From Octopus vulgaris (Eukaryota): a stretch of DNA of 64,000 nt. This document shows positions 5,475 through 14,945 of this stretch, piece by piece. Every line of letters begins with the position of its first letter. Within the stretch, counting starts at the first letter, position 1. The notes under the pieces were generated by a model that worked only from the letters and a program-made list of their open reading frames with translations, had not been told where the DNA came from and did no database searches. Position numbers and translations under genes: made by a program. Where the stretch lies: the NCBI GenBank assembly GCA_951406725.2, contig OX597822.1, positions 57,908,001-57,972,000 on the forward strand, written 5' to 3'.

Positions 5475-6073
5475 ATCTAAAGAACTGCATTATAAACAAC
5501 ATTTTCAACTTTTTTATCTTTTGTGTAATAACAGATCATTAGGATCTCCTAAGCTCGAAAGTGATACATATAGTTTTCCATGAGAAAATACTTCATTTTT
5601 AAGATTGATACCAACTTTTTTTTAATGTTTGGACTTGTGATTTATTTATTGTCATAGCAAAGGATAATTTAACAGAAAATTGTAATCACTGGATCCTCTG
5701 CAATTAATTTAACCCTTGGTAATAATGCTAATTCATTTTTGTACTTTCCATTTAGTATTTTTGCTTCAGGTACATTATTTGTACGGGATTCCACTATTAA
5801 TCTTGTTCCACTGCATAACTTTGGGGTTTGTAAATTTCTCAAAAGAATAACGGGGGCGCCTTTCTTCAAATACAATTCATGTGGTGGAAATTCCAATATT
5901 TCTAATGAATTTAAGAACTCAACCGGAAAATTTACTGCTTCGTTTGTATCAACTATTTGATCTATAGAATTGTATGGTCTTAATCTATGTTCTATTTTGT
6001 TAAGCAATCGCATATTAATAACATCAACATCGTCATTTTTAACAGCTAAAATTCTTTTTCCAAAAGCAATCAC
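5475..6073 (-). mobile_element. Helitron RepHel PIF1-like helicase C-terminal fragment (pseudogenised)
   Basis: ORF 5669-6073 has ILAVKN..VDVIN, FPVEFLNSL..PPHELYLKKGAPVILLRNL..KLCSGTRLIV. After frameshifts it continues SFAMTINKSQ..VFSHGKLYVSLS..NVVYNAVL*. These are typical Helitron helicase motifs. Confidence 0.85.
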
Positions 6074-6475
6074 CTTGTTCTGTGACTAACGACTGGGGTT
6101 ATTCGTTTGTATTACAAATCCTCAACCGATAATAATGGTTGATAATTAGCGCAAAGACATGGTATTGAACAGATTTGGGATTTAGAAGGATTAGAAAAGA
6201 ACGGGATGATAGGCTCTCCGTCTTCTGCGGTATTACAGGAAGAAGGTGTGCGTCTGCACTCTTACAGATGTGTGAATTTTTTTCAATTTCATAAAATAAA
6301 TATATGTATTTAATTGTTAAGTTAATTCATATTTAGAAATAATAGTTATTTTAACAATTAAAATTACATTTATGAAAGAAAGCCTTTTAAAATAATTTTT
6401 ATTTCCCTCCGTAAAAAAAATACTGAACGAGAGAACAACGTGATTCTCGTTATAATTTACCCGAAATCTCGTGTT

Positions 6476-6507
6476 CCTCTTCCTTTTCACGGTCGTCCAT
6501 TTTAACT
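6476..6507 (+). promoter_or_regulatory. RPS21: RPS21 TCT/5'TOP start and non-coding exon 1
   Basis: Polypyrimidine CCTCTTCCTTTTC (TCT initiator YC+1TYTYY), a YY1-like CCATTTT, then a GTAAGT donor at 6508. The acceptor TTGCAG ends at 6611. Confidence 0.75.
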
Positions 6508-6639
6508 GTAAGTTGTCGTGTGATTCTTCTTAAAATTAAAAATGGAATTACTGAGGTTTTAAATGTACAATGATTTGCTAAGTCTCGCATTTTGTTTCTT
6601 TACTGTTGCAGAAGATTTTCTTAGAACAAAGAAAGGATT

Positions 6640-6689
6640 ATGCAGAACGAAGCAGGTGAATTCGTGGATATGTATATCCCAAGGAAATG
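6640..6689 (+). CDS. RPS21: 40S ribosomal protein S21 (eS21), coding exon 1
   Basis: MQNEAGEFVDMYIPRK plus TG; GT donor at 6690. Five exons of 50+64+72+56+10 nt give 83 aa plus stop with consistent phases. Confidence 0.97.
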
Positions 6690-7050
6690 GTATGCTCCTT
6701 ACACACGTGGTTTACACGTTTTATTTTTCTAAATTGTATTTTGAAATTATTTTTGTCTACTTTATTATATACCTCTGTGGTGTTTATCTTGTAATAGTCC
6801 TGTATTATACACGGGAGAAATTTGTACTACGTTTTCGGCTTAGTTTCCTTTCATTTACAATGCTAAATTTAAGGTCCCCTAAACAAAATCGCTAAGGCTT
6901 TTCATAAGCTCGTTAACTTCCTATTTGTAACTAGCATAAAAGTTACCACATCCCATTTATTTTCCGCTGGAAATTTTGTCATTCATGTAGAAACGAAGAT
7001 TTGCATTTTTTATTCGTGTTTATGTTTTTATGTTACACTTATTTCATTCT

Positions 7051-7270
7051 GCGGCGAGCTGGCAGAATCATTAGCACGCCGGGCGAAATGCTTAGCGGTA
7101 TTTCGCCCCCCGCTACGTTCTCAGTTCAAATTCCGCCGAGATCGATTTTGCCTTTCATCCTTTCGGGGTCGATTAAATAAGTACCAGTTATGCATTGGGG
7201 TCGATATAATCGGACTTAATCCGTTTGTCTGTCCTTGTTTAGCCCCTTGTGGATAGTAAAGAAATAGGTA
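7051..7270 (+). mobile_element. tRNA-derived SINE, family A (CpG-rich copy) in RPS21 intron 2
   Basis: A-box-like TGGCAGAATCATT, B-box GTTCAAATT and core GCCTTTCATCCTTTCGGGGTCGATTAAATAAGTACCAG. Many copies occur in the window. Confidence 0.8.
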
Positions 7271-8064
7271 TTTCGTCTGTCTTTACGTTCTGAGTTCAAA
7301 TGCCACTGGAGTTGATAAATCAAGTACCAGTTTCGCACTGGAGTCGATGTAATCGAATGCCCCCCCCCCCCCAATTTCAGGTCTTGTGTCTACAGTCGAA
7401 ACGTTTATTTCATGTGTAAGGCGACTGAATAGATATCAAAATATGATGTTACACCCCGAGACCTGTAAGTGTGATCTCTAGATCTACTAAAAATAGTATC
7501 CAAATCACACTACCGTTTTAAATACAAATAAAACTTGTATAAAGTAGTACTAGATATCTTTTATGTTGGAAAATAAGGTCTTCGATCACATATGATTGCA
7601 CGAATGGGACAGGCCTGAATTCAAAACACGCGGGAGACAAGTTTGCATATTTTTAGATGAGTTTTGTGTCATGAAGTATCGTTATTCTTCAAAGCAAAAC
7701 ATTCACCGCTATGAGAAGATAGAAAATTAGTTTTAACTATAGAGACGCGGGCTTGGCTGTGTAGTTTTTGTTTCAGTCCTACTGCGTGACACCTGCTACG
7801 AGTGTCTTTCACTGTAGTCTCAGGTCGACCTTAAAATGTTAAGGGTGGGAGTCAACGTCATGGGAGTGGTACCCTCCGTTTCCAAATTTTAATGAGAAAA
7901 TATGGTAGACCGAAAATACCTAAATTGGGAACGGGTGAGGATTGGCGAGGGCATCTACCCGTAAAACAATATGGCATGAAAAGAGGACGTTAAAATGAAA
8001 ATTAGGTTGATTAGATATATAGCACAAGCGGTGTACTGCCGCTTTTGTTTCCTCGTGATTGTTT

Positions 8065-8196
8065 TCCAAAGGGTGTTGCGACTCATGGTAAAAACCTGTG
8101 AGTGGAGTCAAAACTTTGGTACAGAAAATGTTGAACTGTTGAAAAGAAAAATCTCAGAATTCCAACGTTCTGATTATTCGACTGGCTCACACATGA
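8065..8196 (+). ncRNA. SNORA13: Box H/ACA snoRNA, SNORA13/snR35-like guide for the 18S psi1248 equivalent (copy 1)
   Basis: Hairpin closed by CCAAAG/CTTTGG, H box ACAGAA at 8121, second hairpin, ACA+3 nt at 8191. Pocket GUGUU (8073-8077) / GUCAAA (8107-8112) pairs with conserved 18S UUUGAC-U-C-AACAC, 14 nt from the H box. Confidence 0.85.
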
Positions 8197-8631
8197 CAAG
8201 AAGTGAAATTAAAAGTGTTTACTCTACTAATGTTTCACGCATGTGTAGAATTATAAAATAACAGACGCATAAAGTATCTAAATAGAAAACCTGACATGCT
8301 ACAAACACGTTTTCAAAATTTTAATACGAATTCTCTTGAATTCTAACATTTTGATGTGTCATTTTTCTTGGCGATATTATCTTCCTTACTGTTTTAAGAG
8401 TTACGTCCCTTGTATCATTATCCGTAATTGTTCGGTTCTGAGGAATGAACCGGAATATGATTTCCCCGACTTTCTTAAGTTTAAAATGCGAAACTCATCA
8501 TCATCATCGTTTAACGTCCGTTTTCCGCGCTAGCACGGGTTTTTATTATATCTACATTCCACATTCGTGTACGCTCATTAGCTTTCTCCACACACATAAA
8601 TACATAAAAGCAGAACACGCTCGCACACACG

Positions 8632-8792
8632 TACTATTTAAGAAGAGTGGTCCCGGTGTACGCATCCGCACTGGCTAGTCGTAACTAGTCGATCCTACAA
8701 CGATTACCTAACAGTAAATAAAACTCAAAAACACAAAGGGATCAACTAGCTAGCGCGAGTGCGCGCACCGGGGCCGCTCATCTTAAATAGTA
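8632..8792. mobile_element. Palindromic MITE (copy 1)
   Basis: TACTATTTAAGAAGAGTGGTCCCGGTG...CACCGGGCCGCTCATCTTAAATAGTA long inverted ends. Paralog at 9855. Confidence 0.7.
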
Positions 8793-9644
8793 ACCTTTAC
8801 CCATTAGCTTCCTCTTCCACTTCAACACGTCAAACAGAACAAGCACGCACTCGAATGTTTATAATTGACAAGACGACGTGCTCACCGAAAATGACGAAGT
8901 TAATGATAGCTCTGAGATGTATTCCGAAAGATTGCCCATATTTGTTCTTACCTGCTTCGTTTCTGTGTGTACAATCCGTAAATTTCCAAGAATAAAACGA
9001 GATCCACGTCGAAAAAGCCATGTGGGTATTTTTAACGACCGAAGAGCCGAAATATTGCAACATGCATGGAGAAAAGGAAGAAATGTAAATTAAGCCTGTG
9101 TGGATTTGGTGGAGGAATGTTTGTCCCCCTCTCCCACCATCGCTTGAAAATAGATGTTGGTGTGCTTACGTCCCCGTAGCTTAGCGGTTCGACCACAGAG
9201 AACGATAGAATAAGTACTAGGTTTACAAAGAATAAGTCCTGAGGTCAGTGTTTTCGACTAAAGGCAGTGCTCCAGCATGGCCGCAGTCAAATGACTGAAA
9301 CAAGTAAAAGAATAACACTTAAAGAAATGGTTACATAAAAACAGAACACACCCATTAGCGTCTTCTTCAGCACATCAAACAGAACAGGAGTCTTTATAGT
9401 TATAAAGACAACACGTGCTCACGGAAAATGACGAAGATAATAAGTCTAAGGCGTATTCCAAAAGATTAGCCCCTTGTTTTCTAGTGCAACGACCAATAGG
9501 CATATTTTATTTGGTAATGTGGCGAAGAATATGCACACCCGGTGTTTAAGGTGAGGATTATGCCGAAAACGGGTGGTGTGCATATTTTTTACTTCCTTCT
9601 TGTACTGTTAGCATATTTCGATATTGGAGTTATGGTGACCATTG

Positions 9645-9771
9645 TCCAAAGGGTGTTGCGACTCATGGTAAAAACCTGTGAGTGGAGTCAAAACTTTGGT
9701 ATATAAAATGTCGAACTGTTGAAAATATATCTCAGATTTCTAATCTGAATATTCAACTGGTTCGCACATCT
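9645..9771 (+). ncRNA. SNORA13: Box H/ACA snoRNA, SNORA13/snR35-like (copy 2)
   Basis: First 57 nt are identical to copy 1. H box ATATAA at 9701; hairpin TCGAAC..GTTGAA/TTCAAC..GTTCG; ACA at 9766 plus 3 nt. Confidence 0.85.
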
Positions 9772-9854
9772 GAATTATTCCCAATTGCGTTTATAAAATA
9801 GCATCTACGAGTAATTTTTTAAGTATATAGTAACTGCGATGGTAATTTTTCGGT

Positions 9855-10013
9855 ACTACTGAAGAGTGGTCCAGTATGCGCATCCGCGTTAGCTAGTCGT
9901 GACTAGTCGATCCTACAACAACTACCTAGCAAAGTAAATAAAATACAAAAACAATGTAAGGATCGACTAGCCAACGTGAGTGCGCGCGCCGGGACCACTC
10001 TTCTTCAGTAGTA
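9855..10013. mobile_element. Palindromic MITE (copy 2)
   Basis: TACTACTGAAGAGTGGTCC...GGACCACTCTTCTTCAGTAGTA inverted ends, with internal CTAGTCGATCC/GGATCGACTAG. Confidence 0.7.
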
Positions 10014-10095
10014 CCAATTTTTCTTTAAAAACTAAAATAATTTTCTACATGATCATAATCATTGGTTTCATTTTTTTTTTTCTTTTTGTGTCTAG

Positions 10096-10159
10096 TTCAG
10101 CCAGTAATAGCATTATTGCTGCCAAAGATCATGCTTCTGTACAAATAAACATTGCTGAA
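10096..10159 (+). CDS. RPS21: RPS21 coding exon 2
   Basis: (C)SASNSIIAAKDHASVQINIAE between a polypyrimidine-TAG acceptor and a GTAAGT donor. Confidence 0.97.
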
Positions 10160-11599
10160 GTAAGTATTACAAATTTAACCAATATTCTTATTTAAAATTT
10201 GGTTTCAGAATGTTTGTCTTCACCTGTGAATTTTAGACCAATGCTTCTCAACTTCTTTTTCTTAACACTGAACTCTTGCTACAATACAGTAAAATTAAAA
10301 GCACAACCATGTTCCTTTCGAATGTTGGGCCTCATGGAGGCAATGACTGAGGCCCTTGGAATTATATGCTTGAGAAGACGACCCCCATCAAGTCAAGCAA
10401 AATGGCAGTCATGCAGATACTGGTGTCATGCAAATGATACCCATGCTGGTGGCATCTAAAAGCATTACACTCAGGGTTGTTGCCATTAGGAACATCTCTC
10501 ATGCTTCACTGTTCCCAGTACTTATAACAACATTATTTCACACACACCCCTGCAAGAGGAAGTACTGCTCATTTTGAGAAAGCTCTTAAAGAATATCATC
10601 ATCGTTTAACATCCACTTTCCATAGCATGGGTTGGATGTGTTTTACATACTAGTCAGGCAGCACTGGCACCAGCCATGATGACAATTTCACTTGACTCAA
10701 CAGGTTTTCTCAAGCACAGCATATTGCCTGACGATTGAAGGGTACTTTTAAATAGGCTGGTTATGCGACGCTGACATCGGGCACAGCTACGATCTCACTT
10801 GGCTTGCTAGGTCTTCTTATAAAATTGGTCTTTCTGTTCATTGGGTAGCCCTGGCTGAAGTACATAGGCCAAGATAATGGTTGGTAATCTGTATTGCAGC
10901 ACTAGTCTAAGCTTAAGTATTCTATCACAGACTCTGACTACCTCTATTACCTTATCAACCCATTTCTCCACAAGGAGTTTACTCATGCCCCCTACCCCAA
11001 AAGATCTTATACCTATGTTCTTTGCCTATGAGGAACCTAGTAGGACTTCCTCTTCACCTTCTTTGGTGCTGCACAAATCTACATGTCTCTGTTCAAGCAT
11101 ATCAACAATCTCACCAGACCTACCTTTCAATATGCCAACTCTGAGGGTATGGAAGGTCTGTGATGGAAGACAACAGCATTATGCATCTGAAAAGAATGCT
11201 TGCATTTGGCAGGTCTCATAAACATACAAATAGCCTTTAACCTGCATACACTACACCATCATTTTATTTGCTACAAAATCACTATATTCAACAGGAGGTA
11301 GGGGTGGAGGGAGAAGAGAGGTTGGGGTAAGCATTCTGTATAGTTAGTTGTATGAAGTGTTCAGGAAAAAGACATCCAGTAGAGGTCAGAGAATAAAAAC
11401 TTCAGTGAATGCAAACCTCCACCAGGGCAACACCAACATCCTCTCAACAATTAGGAAGAGATTATTTTTAAAATGAGAATATCTGAAATAAACTCAACTG
11501 CCCTCGCAAACGAGAATACTGAAGGTGAACCTAACCACTCAAAAGATCAAGAAAAAAAAAAAGATAGAAAAATAATGCAGAATCCTTGTCTGATACCTG

Positions 11600-11880
11600 A
11601 TCGATCCCAGTGGAAGTCCTGGAATGTGAAGATGGGTGTGCAGGCTCTGTGTGTGTTGTCGGCAGTGTGGACAGGGACAGTTTTCTCTATGAAGGCCTTT
11701 TTTAGTCTATCTACTGATATAGTCTTTACAACCCTTGGGGTCTGGAGTAAAAAATTTATCCACGCATGAAAGAAAACAGAAAGGACCTGCATATTGTGCT
11801 GTTAACGGGGGTTTAACAACGTTGTTGCGCACCAAAGCGTGAGTCCATTAACTAAAGCTTCCTTCGGGGCAGAGCGAGAA
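11600..11880 (-). mobile_element. Gypsy/Ty3 integrase C-terminal (GPY/F) remnant
   Basis: Minus strand reads WTHALVRNNVVKPPLTAQYAGPF, then frameshifted KTISVDRLKKAF. Confidence 0.7.
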
Positions 11881-13206
11881 ATGCAATTATCAAGTAGGTG
11901 AGAGGTTTTAAAGAGGAGCGATATATTCAAAAGTGGTAAAACTAAAAATTGTCGGGGATTAATTTATTATTGTTACTGAATATGTTAGTGTTATTTAGTT
12001 TCTGAACAACTTTGCTGCCGTTTGTTTATGTAGCTTGATTTCTTTATCTATCAGTTTCTACTAAGATAGAGATACGAATATAAAACTTTTGAAACGGCAA
12101 CGCTGCTGAAACTTATGTGGAAACCATGAATGTGCTTTCAAGGGAGATAATCAGAGAAATACTTGAAAGTGAATATAAGATCATAATATTTCATGTAAAG
12201 TAAATATAGTAAATAATCCAGAACTCTTGTCTAGTACTGGATCAAAATCTAATCAGTTCATGAAAGTTTCATCTGAATCCATCCAACGGTTCTTAGGATA
12301 TCTTGTCCACAGACAAACATGACTGAAAACAATACCTCTACCTTTACTTAGGCAGAGATAATAATTATAACGAGTGTTAAAGTGAGAGGGAATTGAATTG
12401 AACATAGGATTTCTTAAGTTTAGTATAACATACAGCTATAAGAAATAGCAGTCAAATCTCTAATCTCACCATAACATCTTTTAAAAAAATCATGTGTTAG
12501 GTAAGTTCTACATGCACTGCATAACACAAGATAATCACAGCTTGAAAGTTTTTGAATCATGGGCCTGTTCAATCAAATGCAGCAGCAAATTGCCTCTGGA
12601 CCTTATCAGTCACCATGTAATACAAGTTCAAAATATGTTTCCTTTTGTCATTGATATCTATTTCTGTTCAACTGTATATACATGGTGATTGTGAGATCTA
12701 TATAAATGAAAAATCTTGTATAATCTAATTGTTGCTGTTCCATGATCCAGGTATTTTTGTAACATATATGCTTATTTTGTTGACTTTCTTCACATTATCC
12801 ATTTAGAAAATTTATTTCTTTCTCTGTACTACTTGTAAGAGTTGGTGGCGTTCCAAAGTTTTAGCATAGTCGGGCTTAAATAGATCAGACGTCACTACTA
12901 TTTGGACAATGGTTTTCTTTAATGAGTAATTGTTATACAAGGTGTTCTGTAGTAGTGGAACCATGAACATAATTGTGTGTGTTCAAGAGGGGAGAACAAT
13001 GCCACAGCCCTTCCTGGCAGTGATGGTAGACTTGCTAGAAATTTTACCAACATGTACACATGCCCGTACTCTTGAACATACATACACACTTAAACCTTTC
13101 AATCTACTTCACTGCTGCCATTCTTGTGATCTTCAATTCACCATGTTTACAGGTCCTCTAGGTTTCCTTTATAAAAGAGTTGTGTAACTTGTATGTAAAA
13201 TGTATC

Positions 13207-13337
13207 ACCAAAGTTGTCAAATTCCTGTTCACATAGTATCCCTGTGTACAGAGCCTAGTCTTTGGGATATAAATTGAGGAAAACTTTCAGTTAATGTTTC
13301 ACTTATAAAATTATCTGGACAAGCACCTCTGACATTA
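13207..13337 (+). ncRNA. Box H/ACA snoRNA, predicted dual guide for 18S psi1238 and psi36 equivalents (copy 1, RPS21 intron 3)
   Basis: Hairpin 1 CCAAAG/CTTTGG with pocket GUCAAAUU/GCC; H box ATATAA at 13267. Hairpin 2 GAGG/CCTC with pocket CUUU/GACAAGCA; ACA at 13332. Both pockets are 14 nt from their box. Confidence 0.85.
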
Positions 13338-13468
13338 GTTTCCATTTTGTTTTGTTTTTTTATCTTTTGGCAGTTTGTGTTGCAAGTTAAAATGGCTTGC
13401 ACACACACTCATCAGAATGAAATGTGGTTTTTGTATGATTTTATTTCTAATCTTTCTCCCTTTCTCAG

Positions 13469-13540
13469 GTTGATGTTACTACAGGCAGAATGACAGGTTC
13501 AAACAAAACATATGCTATTTGTGGGAAGATTCGACAGATG
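13469..13540 (+). CDS. RPS21: RPS21 coding exon 3
   Basis: VDVTTGRMTGSNKTYAICGKIRQM; CAG acceptor and GT donor. Confidence 0.97.
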
Positions 13541-13650
13541 GTAATACCCTCGATATATTTCAACTTGGCTCATTATTATAATGTTAATATTGGAAAATTG
13601 CTAGATTATGTAGGAAGTCTGTTGTGATTCTATCTTTATTTGCATGTAAC

Positions 13651-13779
13651 GCCAAAGTTGTCAAATTCCTGTTCATGCTTCATTTTTGTGACTGGGGCCA
13701 AAACTTTGGAAGATAAAAAGAGGAAAACTTTCAGATAATTTTCCATATAAGATTGTCTGGACAAGCACCTCTGACATTC
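13651..13779 (+). ncRNA. Box H/ACA snoRNA, predicted dual guide for psi1238/psi36 equivalents (copy 2, RPS21 intron 4)
   Basis: Paralog of 13207-13337 with the same pockets and diverged loops. H box AGATAA at 13711, ACA at 13774. Confidence 0.85.
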
Positions 13780-14003
13780 TTTTCATTACATAGATAATGG
13801 TGTGCATCACTATTAAGTGATGGTACTGAATTATAGAATTTTACAAAATGAAAGGTTTGCCAGATTTGGTTCTAATACATTTTGAATTAACTTCATCTTC
13901 AGTAAGTTTCTCATATTTAGGGAGATGCAGCCTTAGATTCACAGTAACATTTCTTTTCGATGCCTTTAAAATTTTTTTTTTTCTCTCTCTTCTCTCTTTA
14001 TAG

Positions 14004-14059
14004 GGTGAATCTGATGACAGTATTTGCCGCTTAGCAAAAAGGGATGGAATTATTGCAAA
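14004..14059 (+). CDS. RPS21: RPS21 coding exon 4
   Basis: GESDDSICRLAKRDGIIA(K); TAG acceptor and GTAAGT donor. Confidence 0.97.
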
Positions 14060-14915
14060 GTAAGTTGTGAAAGTTTGTTTGGGCTTGGTATTTTTGGTGG
14101 TTGTGTGGTCAGTTTGCTTCCTTTCTACATGGTTCCAGGTTCATGTGGTGTCTTCTACTATAGCCCCAGGTAAATCAAATCCTTCTGGGTGGATTTGGTA
14201 GACAGAGACTAAAAGACGCCTATCATGTGTTTGTCCCCTCACCTCCACTTGACAACTGGTGTTTGTTTGCTTTATGTCCCTGTAACTTAGCAGTTCAACA
14301 GGAGAGTGATGGAATAAATCCCAGGCATGTAAGAAAAAAAGATTCAGTATTGTGGTCAATTCATTCAACTAAAATCCCTTCAAGATGGTGCCCCAGTATG
14401 GCTGCAGCCCAATGACTGAAAGAAGTAAAATATGAAATATATATATATATATATATAAAAACACGCTTAACTCTAAAAAGATTTATTATCAGAAGAATTG
14501 TTTCATGCACATTAATATTATTGGTTGTATTGGTTTCCAACAGGGCAATCACTGATAAATAATTAGCACTTTTTGTGGTGGAAATAAGTGGCCTTTGTAT
14601 ATTATATTAATTTATTTGCAACAGGCTTCTGCAATTTCTATCTACTAAATTTCAGTAGGGTGCAGTGGCATTGGTCATCCCAGGGCATTGCTAAAAGATT
14701 TTACCTTAATCAGTGGGATTAAAGCTGGAACTATGTGTTTGCAAATTTCTTACCCATGCAGTCATGCTTACACTAATGCATTAATTGATGGTAAATGCAG
14801 TGGAAACTTGATTCAAATACATAGAAATATTTCAACTTTATAGAATTTAATTTTCTATTATATTACATGTCTTTCAAAACTTAATTTCAATACATATTTT
14901 TTCTTTTTCTTTCAG

Positions 14916-14925
14916 AAATTATTGA
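14916..14925 (+). CDS. RPS21: RPS21 terminal coding exon (K)NY*
   Basis: Long polypyrimidine tract plus CAG; A-AAT-TAT-TGA completes the 83-aa protein. Confidence 0.9.
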
Positions 14926-14945
14926 ATATGGCCTGCCAAATAGAA

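What the first reader, a model, noticed from the sequence alone, without database searches (positions are those of the whole stretch)
13207..13779. Duplicated H/ACA snoRNA with an unusual dual-target combination (18S psi1238 + psi36 equivalents)
Seen: two paralogs in consecutive RPS21 introns have the full hairpin-H-hairpin-ACA layout, conserved pockets and diverged loops. Using the recalled conserved 18S sequence, the 5' pocket (GUCAAAUU/GCC) brackets GGC-U-U-AAUUUGAC (human U1238). The 3' pocket (CUUU/GACAAGCA) brackets UGCUUGUC-U-C-AAAG (human U36). Both sit exactly 14 nt from their box. Known: in human these sites have different guides (SNORA5 for 1238 together with 1625; SNORA55/SNORA69 for 36). 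Inference: this is a hairpin-shuffled or lineage-specific guide RNA that may be unannotated.
Basis: partly seen in the sequence, partly recalled or inferred. Interest (0 to 1): 0.75.

Follow-up and report, generated by a model that had tools for sequence, protein, structure and literature searches.

The report
RPS21 intron dual-target 18S guide snoRNA
Two neighbouring introns of a ribosomal-protein gene each carry a copy of a small guide RNA predicted to mark two 18S ribosomal RNA uridines that have separate guides in humans; the pairing looks unrecorded, but such re-pairing is common, and the fresher detail is that one half likely shares ancestry with a different guide in the same gene.

Summary
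Two paralogous box H/ACA snoRNA genes (13203-13337, 13647-13779) lie in consecutive spliced introns of RPS21. Against this genome's own rDNA, the 5' pocket's best site is 18S U1745 (human U1238; 8+3 pairs) and the 3' pocket's is U37 (human U36; 4+8 pairs), each 14 nt from its box. The copies differ at 0 of 46 guide, lower-stem and ACA positions and at 28 of 79 others. The full two-pocket pattern occurs twice in 2.8 Gb (control 0). No Rfam family reaches threshold; snR85 matches the 5' hairpin weakly. I found no record of this target pair, but the main fly and worm catalogues could not be read, and re-pairing of H/ACA pockets is documented as common. Added here: RPS21 hosts a second H/ACA pair (about 8062 and 9642, predicted to guide human U1248) whose 5' hairpin is clearly related to this RNA's (20 of 24 bases), and published maps show pseudouridine 36 in amniotes but not frogs, fish or yeast. 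Expression as a discrete RNA and the modifications are untested. A real, modest variant of a known kind.

The parts
13203..13337 (+). H/ACA snoRNA family A, copy 1 (intron 10160-13468 of RPS21); ends predicted
   Evidence: ACA ends 134 nt before the 3' splice site
13208..13265 (+). Copy 1 5' hairpin: lower stem CCAAAG/CUUUGG, guide strands 13216-13223 and 13253-13255, predicted target 18S U1745 (human U1238)
   Evidence: weak snR85 match 26.7 bits
13267..13272 (+). Copy 1 H box (AUAUAA)
13276..13334 (+). Copy 1 3' hairpin and ACA: guide strands 13284-13287 and 13318-13325, predicted target 18S U37 (human U36); ACA 13332-13334
13647..13779 (+). H/ACA snoRNA family A, copy 2 (intron 13541-14003); guide strands 13660-13667, 13697-13699, 13728-13731, 13760-13767; H box 13711-13716; ACA 13774-13776; ends predicted
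   Evidence: 78% identical to copy 1
8062..8196 (+). H/ACA snoRNA family B, copy 1 (intron 6690-10095); 5' pocket GUGUU/GUCAAA predicted for 18S U1755 (human U1248, SNORA13/snR35-type site); H box 8121
9642..9771 (+). H/ACA snoRNA family B, copy 2, same intron; H box 9701, ACA 9766; 5' hairpin related to that of family A
6640..6689 (+). RPS21 first coding exon
   Evidence: loose ends at 10095 carry this exon's end
10096..10159 (+). RPS21 coding exon 2
13469..13540 (+). RPS21 coding exon 3, between the two family A copies
14004..14059 (+). RPS21 coding exon 4
14916..14926 (+). RPS21 last coding exon to the stop codon
6474..6507 (+). Probable non-coding first exon with pyrimidine tract (TOP-like), donor GTAAGT at 6508; inferred from sequence only

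Best explanation
Two paralogous box H/ACA snoRNA genes sit in consecutive RPS21 introns, and each is predicted to guide pseudouridylation of two 18S rRNA uridines, the equivalents of human U1238 (5' pocket) and U36 (3' pocket). Shown: location, sense orientation, boxes, hairpins, complementarity to the organism's own 18S, 14-nt spacing, and selective conservation. Inferred from the established H/ACA pathway: the RNA is co-transcribed with RPS21, trimmed from the spliced intron to end 3 nt after ACA, binds dyskerin/NOP10/NHP2/GAR1 on each hairpin, and holds the target U unpaired under the upper stem for isomerisation. Inferred history: the RNA works like SNORA5/snR85 in its 5' half, its second pocket took on U36 independently of amniote SNORA55/69, it was duplicated into the next intron, and its 5' hairpin shares ancestry or has exchanged sequence with the neighbouring U1248 guide (family B).
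For: Best site of each pocket in own 18S plus about 10 kb of downstream rDNA is the predicted one in both copies (5': top of 17 candidates by score; 3': 12 pairs against 7 for the next of 11). 11 and 12 Watson-Crick pairs exceed the 8-pair minimum shown in yeast, where the snR85 5' pocket guides psi1181 with 8+4 pairs (PMC6049503 passages); chicken SNORA5 uses 8+3 on the same site (PMC2653536 Table 2). 0 of 46 differences in guide strands, lower stems and ACA against 28 of 79 elsewhere (Fisher p 3e-7; I had seen the alignment before drawing the elements). Flanks align at about 45-50%, the RNA at 105 of 135. Changes in the 3' upper stem keep pairing (11 of 11 pairs in copy 2, 9 of 11 in copy 1). 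In a related organism's contig, the 6 listed changes inside copy 1 all miss guide strands, lower stems and boxes, and one restores a stem pair (7 of that contig's 8 differences were listed). Both copies hit snR85 (clan CL00024, shared with SNORA5) below threshold.
Against: No evidence of a discrete RNA or of pseudouridine at either site. No double compensatory change between the copies; the two-sequence consensus fold misses the 5' lower stem and instead pairs UGUCA of the 5' pocket with UGACA over the ACA box. Copy 1 folds no better than shuffles as a whole (47 of 200) and has a C-A mismatch at the base of its 5' upper stem, though the snR85 consensus has the same letters there. One 28S-region site ties the 5' pocket of copy 1 at 11 pairs when G-U pairs and a shifted edge are allowed. 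snRNA targets were not scanned. Predicted pockets sometimes fail in vivo (PMC6984369 supplementary table 2).
Confidence: 0.85

Rival explanations
1. Origin rival: the U1238 pocket was not inherited from the SNORA5/snR85 line but re-made from a duplicate of the neighbouring SNORA13-type U1248 guide (family B), the target sliding 10 nt along the same rRNA strand; the match to snR85 would then be convergence forced by the target.
For: Families A and B share the lower stem CCAAAG/CUUUGG and the descending arm: 20 of 24 bases copy 2 vs B (binomial p 1.5e-8), 15 of 24 copy 1 vs B (p 4e-4); 5' hairpin alignment z 3.5-6.6 in 4 of 4 cross pairs. A model built from family A ranks B2 (25.0 bits) third and B1 (19.3) fifth of 12 window matches. 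The SNORA5, snR85 and TtnuHACA21 consensus stems differ from this stem. One base (GUC to GCC) separates the right guide strands.
Against: The left guide strands are unrelated (GGUGUU vs GUCAAAUU). Letters beside the pocket that the target does not force (U before, C after GUCAAAUU; G or GA before GCC) are shared with snR85 and SNORA5. The 3' hairpins show no kinship (z 0.3-1.6). Copy 2 is closer to B than to copy 1 in that arm (20 vs 15 of 24, read), which also fits later gene conversion between old, separate families.
Confidence: 0.3
2. The RNA is real but only one pocket (or one copy) is active; U37 is not modified in this animal, as in frogs and fish.
For: psi36 is absent in four amphibians, zebrafish and yeast (PMC6984369 supplement) and not listed for Arabidopsis (PMC8351944 Suppl. 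Table 3). Copy 1 stems are weaker.
Against: The 3' pocket is the best-conserved part (23 identical bases through ACA) with 12 perfect pairs; 0 of 3000 random pairs match it. In the cited vertebrates absence of psi36 goes with absence of a pocket.
Confidence: 0.12
3. Literal hairpin shuffling: a SNORA5-type 5' hairpin fused to a hairpin of the SNORA55/SNORA69 line, which would make the U36 guide older than the split of molluscs and vertebrates.
For: Same target as amniote SNORA55/69.
Against: No SNORA55 or SNORA69 match among the 5 hits at E<=10 for the 3' hairpin; chicken SNORA55 carries the U36 pocket in its 5' hairpin; frog and fish SNORA55/69 lack the pocket, pointing to an amniote gain.
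Confidence: 0.1
4. A chance intronic duplication with no function.
For: Each pocket motif alone is near background in the genome; no Rfam hit at threshold.
Against: Joint pattern unique to these two places; conservation confined to guide and stem positions; both targets are known modification sites.
Confidence: 0.02

Closest known systems
SNORA5 / ACA5 (Rfam RF00392, clan CL00024)
   Same: 5' pocket GUCAAAUU/GCC for 18S U1238 with 8+3 pairs; about 134 nt; intronic, in several neighbouring copies.
   Different: SNORA5's 3' pocket targets U1625 and its host is TBRG4; here the 3' pocket fits U36 and the host is RPS21; no SNORA5 model match was listed even at E<=10.
Yeast snR85 (RF01240, clan CL00024)
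   Same: 5' pocket for psi1181 (= U1238), verified in yeast (PMC6049503); best Rfam hit for both copies, sharing UGUCAAAUUCC and, in copy 1, GAGCC.
   Different: 26.7 and 20.9 bits against a threshold of 37; model is 180 positions; 3' half unrelated.
SNORA55 (RF00431) and SNORA69 (RF00265)
   Same: Target 18S U36 in amniotes.
   Different: Other partners (18S-681; 5.8S-69), other hosts (PABPC4, RPL39 in chicken), pocket in the 5' hairpin for chicken SNORA55, no model similarity.
SNORA13 / snR35 type guides, Tetrahymena TtnuHACA21 (RF02328)
   Same: Describe family B in the same gene (24.5 and 25.7 bits, threshold 100), whose 5' stems family A shares.
   Different: Target U1248, not U1238; link of the U1248 site to ACA13/snR35 taken from chicken Table 2.
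Antisense-element shuffling and cis-duplication of snoRNAs (PMC6984369 Fig. 8 legend; PMC2653536; PMC5824354; PMC3412847)
   Same: New target pairs, one conserved and one lineage-specific pocket, and copies in neighbouring introns of ribosomal-protein genes are all described.
   Different: None of the passages seen reports the 1238+36 pair, an RPS21 host, or stem sharing between a U1238 and a U1248 guide.

Membership tests
Box H/ACA guide snoRNA | Hairpin-hinge-hairpin-tail fold | tested here: met
   Minimum-energy folds of both copies; two-sequence consensus recovers the 3' hairpin and 5' upper stem but not the 5' lower stem
Box H/ACA guide snoRNA | H box ANANNA in the hinge and ACA after the 3' hairpin | tested here: met
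   13267/13711 and 13332/13774
Box H/ACA guide snoRNA | Bipartite pocket flanking an unpaired UN, at least 8 pairs | tested here: met
   8+3 and 4+8 pairs on own 18S; rule from PMC6049503
Box H/ACA guide snoRNA | 14-15 nt from target U to box | tested here: met
   14 nt in 4 of 4 pockets
Box H/ACA guide snoRNA | Sense orientation in a spliced host intron | tested here: met
Box H/ACA guide snoRNA | Discrete RNA ending 3 nt after ACA, bound by dyskerin | not testable with these tools
   Only assembled contigs were available
Box H/ACA guide snoRNA | Pseudouridine at the predicted sites depends on the RNA | not testable with these tools
   Needs modification mapping
SNORA5 (RF00392) | Score at Rfam threshold (30 bits) | tested here: not met
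   Not listed at gathering or at E<=10
SNORA5 (RF00392) | 5' pocket for 18S U1238 | tested here: met
SNORA5 (RF00392) | 3' pocket for 18S U1625 | tested here: not met
   3' pocket's best site is U37; differs from the SNORA5 consensus
snR85 (RF01240) | Score at threshold (37 bits) | tested here: not met
   26.7 and 20.9 bits
snR85 (RF01240) | 5' pocket for yeast U1181 equivalent | tested here: met
SNORA55 / SNORA69 | Model similarity of the U36 hairpin | tested here: not met
SNORA55 / SNORA69 | Pocket for 18S U36 | tested here: met
   but in the 3' hairpin
scaRNA (H/ACA type) | CAB box (UGAG, recalled motif) in apical loops | tested here: not met
   No UGAG in the four loops, read
scaRNA (H/ACA type) | snRNA target | not tested
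   snRNAs were not fetched or scanned

The most novel reading that the evidence does not exclude
Both pockets are new inventions caught inside one gene: a duplicate of the SNORA13-type U1248 guide slid its 5' pocket 10 nt along the rRNA to U1238, replacing SNORA5, and its partner hairpin gained U36, a site otherwise modified only in amniotes among the species mapped, so cephalopods and amniotes would have converged on the same rRNA mark with unrelated guides.
Probability: 0.22. Interest if true: 0.6.

Novelty: new variant of a known kind. Interest (0 to 1): 0.38.

Why it matters
It adds an unannotated invertebrate guide and three testable rRNA modification sites in a group with no pseudouridine map that I could find. 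The new target pair alone would not surprise a specialist. Two points would be of use: a predicted psi36 far outside amniotes (convergent gain, or an old site lost in fish and frogs), and sequence evidence that neighbouring guides for U1238 and U1248 share a hairpin, a direct trace of how H/ACA pockets change targets by duplication or gene conversion within a host gene.

Tried and rejected
Metagenome scan with the two-pocket pattern: 1 match, inside what reads as a bacterial polymerase-like coding region, no Rfam hit; rejected as chance; no distant orthologue was obtained. Sequencing runs: no RNA holder listed on record; only contigs, which cannot show RNA ends or level. Contigs covering the copies (13131-13360, 13195-13408, 13518-13777) and uncovered intron parts are not counted as expression evidence. 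Own-genome Rfam searches: SNORA5 gave 1 marginal hit (31.4 bits, E 0.11) lacking the U1238 pocket; SNORA55, SNORA69 and SNORA13 gave none, but only 41-46 of 39,000-696,000 candidates were scored and the SNORA13 search missed family B, so absence of other guides for these sites is not shown. Single-pocket genome patterns were at or near background. One search used a structure string that I had written out of register; discarded and redone by coordinates. U34-equivalent (own U35) as target of the 3' pocket: needs 12-nt spacing and a mismatch; rejected by inspection. 3' pocket targets of family B: no convincing site; the scan used uncertain box positions and is not informative. No fifth snoRNA copy found in the window. 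Earlier-findings look-ups by sequence and relatives were empty. Ten paper searches found no report of the pair; the 2005 fly and 2006 nematode catalogues were not held. FlyBase names in one supplement show no Psi18S-35/36/37 or -1269, but names give only one target. Passages of PMC3511168, PMC8522698, PMC9997552, PMC3273799 gave nothing relevant.

Full report
Observation. The host is RPS21: one splice-consistent reading gives an 83-residue protein and both exons scanned match Pfam Ribosomal_S21e. Public contigs show the joints 10159>13469 in 4 of 4 runs laid and 13539/40>14003/4 in 2 of 4, so copy 1 and copy 2 lie in consecutive introns, on the sense strand, with ACA 134 and 227 nt before the 3' splice sites. 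A DNA search of the 2.8-Gb genome finds only these two copies, 78% identical.

Anatomy. Each copy folds into two hairpins with internal loops, an H box in the hinge and ACA after the second hairpin. Folding energy is significant for copy 2 (1 of 200 shuffles), for the 5' hairpin of copy 1 and the 3' hairpin of copy 2, but not for copy 1 as a whole (47 of 200) or the other two hairpins. The two-sequence consensus shows five one-sided changes and no double compensatory change, and prefers a long-range pairing over the 5' lower stem; this is a point against, though single-sequence folds are canonical. Conservation follows function: 0 of 46 differences in guide strands, lower stems and ACA, 28 of 79 elsewhere (p 3e-7), with flanks near 45-50%. 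In a related organism the six listed changes within copy 1 avoid those positions and one restores a stem pair; closer relatives differ only at 13296 and 13300 within the RNA.

Targets. The genome's own 18S is 2643 nt and holds both target strings in 4 of 4 copies checked. Scanning every U in 18S and about 10 kb of downstream rDNA, the 5' pocket scores best at U1745, ten bases before the U of GACUCAAC and so the human U1238 equivalent (8+3 pairs; 17 candidates), and the 3' pocket at U37, the human U36 equivalent (4+8 pairs; next best 7; 11 candidates). All four pockets are 14 nt from their box. Random intron pairs reach these counts in 2 and 0 of 3000 draws. The joint pattern occurs twice in the genome against 0 for the control, while each half alone is near background.

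Mechanism. From the established pathway, not shown here: release from the spliced RPS21 intron, trimming to ACA+3, dyskerin complexes on each hairpin, isomerisation of the unpaired U. The pair counts exceed the 8-pair minimum found in yeast, a study that used the snR85 5' pocket on this same site (PMC6049503, passages). No expression or modification data were available.

Comparison. No Rfam family reaches threshold in the window. Both copies hit snR85 below threshold through the 5' hairpin; snR85 and SNORA5 share clan CL00024. The 3' hairpin alone gives nothing related to SNORA55 or SNORA69. In vertebrates SNORA5 pairs U1238 with U1625, SNORA55 pairs U36 with U681, and SNORA69 pairs U36 with 5.8S U69 (PMC6984369 supplement rows). 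So this RNA works like SNORA5/snR85 in its 5' half but fails membership of each family. The same supplement shows psi36 in human, mouse, chicken and lizard but not in four amphibians, zebrafish or yeast; the Arabidopsis table lists neither site (PMC8351944 Suppl. Table 3, read whole). New pairings are ordinary: 39% of H/ACA RNAs keep orthologous targets between frog and human (PMC6984369, passages and section 6 part 1); recombined guide functions in chicken (PMC2653536, passages); one conserved and one free pocket in fungi (PMC5824354, passages); copies in neighbouring ribosomal-protein introns in sponges (PMC3412847, passages). Ten searches found no report of the 1238+36 pair, but the main fly and nematode catalogues were not held, FlyBase names give one target only (PMC13228274 supplement rows), and external supplements of the fungal and deuterostome surveys were not seen, so the claim of being unrecorded is provisional. 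PMC8763049 (passages) was used only for spacing rules.

Beyond the finding. An earlier, unreviewed note on another genome (e1-9504959) reported five snoRNAs in RPS21. Testing it here gave four: a second family, B, at about 8062-8196 and 9642-9771, both in intron 6690-10095, with a GUGUU/GUCAAA pocket 14 nt from an H box that fits U1755 (human U1248) and a weak TtnuHACA21 match; in an unconstrained scan allowing G-U pairs that site ranked fourth of the five shown. B also has only two copies in the genome. The 5' hairpins of A and B are related: same lower stem, 20 of 24 bases shared between copy 2 and B upstream of the H box and 15 of 24 for copy 1, alignment z 3.5-6.6, while the 3' hairpins are not (z 0.3-1.6); a family A model picks up both B copies. 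Either A's U1238 hairpin arose from a B duplicate, or two old families exchanged sequence. Copy 2 being closer to B than to copy 1 in that arm, and pocket-flanking letters shared with snR85 and SNORA5, keep gene conversion at least as likely; outgroup sequences would decide, and none could be obtained (the one metagenome match was chance).

Verdict. A real, probably functional H/ACA guide (0.85) with a target pair not found in what I could read. The organism label octopus is taken from earlier scan notes and was not tested.

Noticed in passing
window 8062-8196 and 9642-9771 (+): Second H/ACA family, two copies in one intron, 5' pocket predicted for the U1248 equivalent; 3' pocket unassigned; the upstream copy is about 1.9 kb from the 3' splice site and has a weaker 3' hairpin.
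   Followed up: partly
window 13687-13718 vs 9677-9708 and 8097-8128: Copy 2 of family A is more like family B than like its own paralogue in the descending arm of the 5' hairpin, a possible gene-conversion tract.
   Followed up: partly
window 13215-13219 with 13330-13334: UGUCA in the 5' pocket is complementary to UGACA over the ACA box in both copies; an alternative fold that would hide both.
   Followed up: no
L030 1501-1601 (-), G000:C6:33700930-33701030: Marginal SNORA5 model hit (31.4 bits) with a good 5' hairpin but a different pocket; possibly another H/ACA RNA or chance.
   Followed up: no
window 5669-6085 (-): 138-residue open frame just upstream of RPS21 that resembles a Helitron/PIF1 helicase fragment (motif recalled, not searched).
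   Followed up: no
window 6474-6507 (+): Pyrimidine-rich TOP-like start and short non-coding first exon of RPS21.
   Followed up: no
L003 (G000:C20:23978688-23981330): 18S rRNA gene of about 2640 nt, far longer than the 1831-position model, in a tandem array with about 18-kb spacing.
   Followed up: no
window 8653-8792 and 9871-10013; 14148-14400: Dispersed repeats inside RPS21 introns; the first pair flanks the family B copies and may mark the duplication that put two copies in one intron.
   Followed up: no
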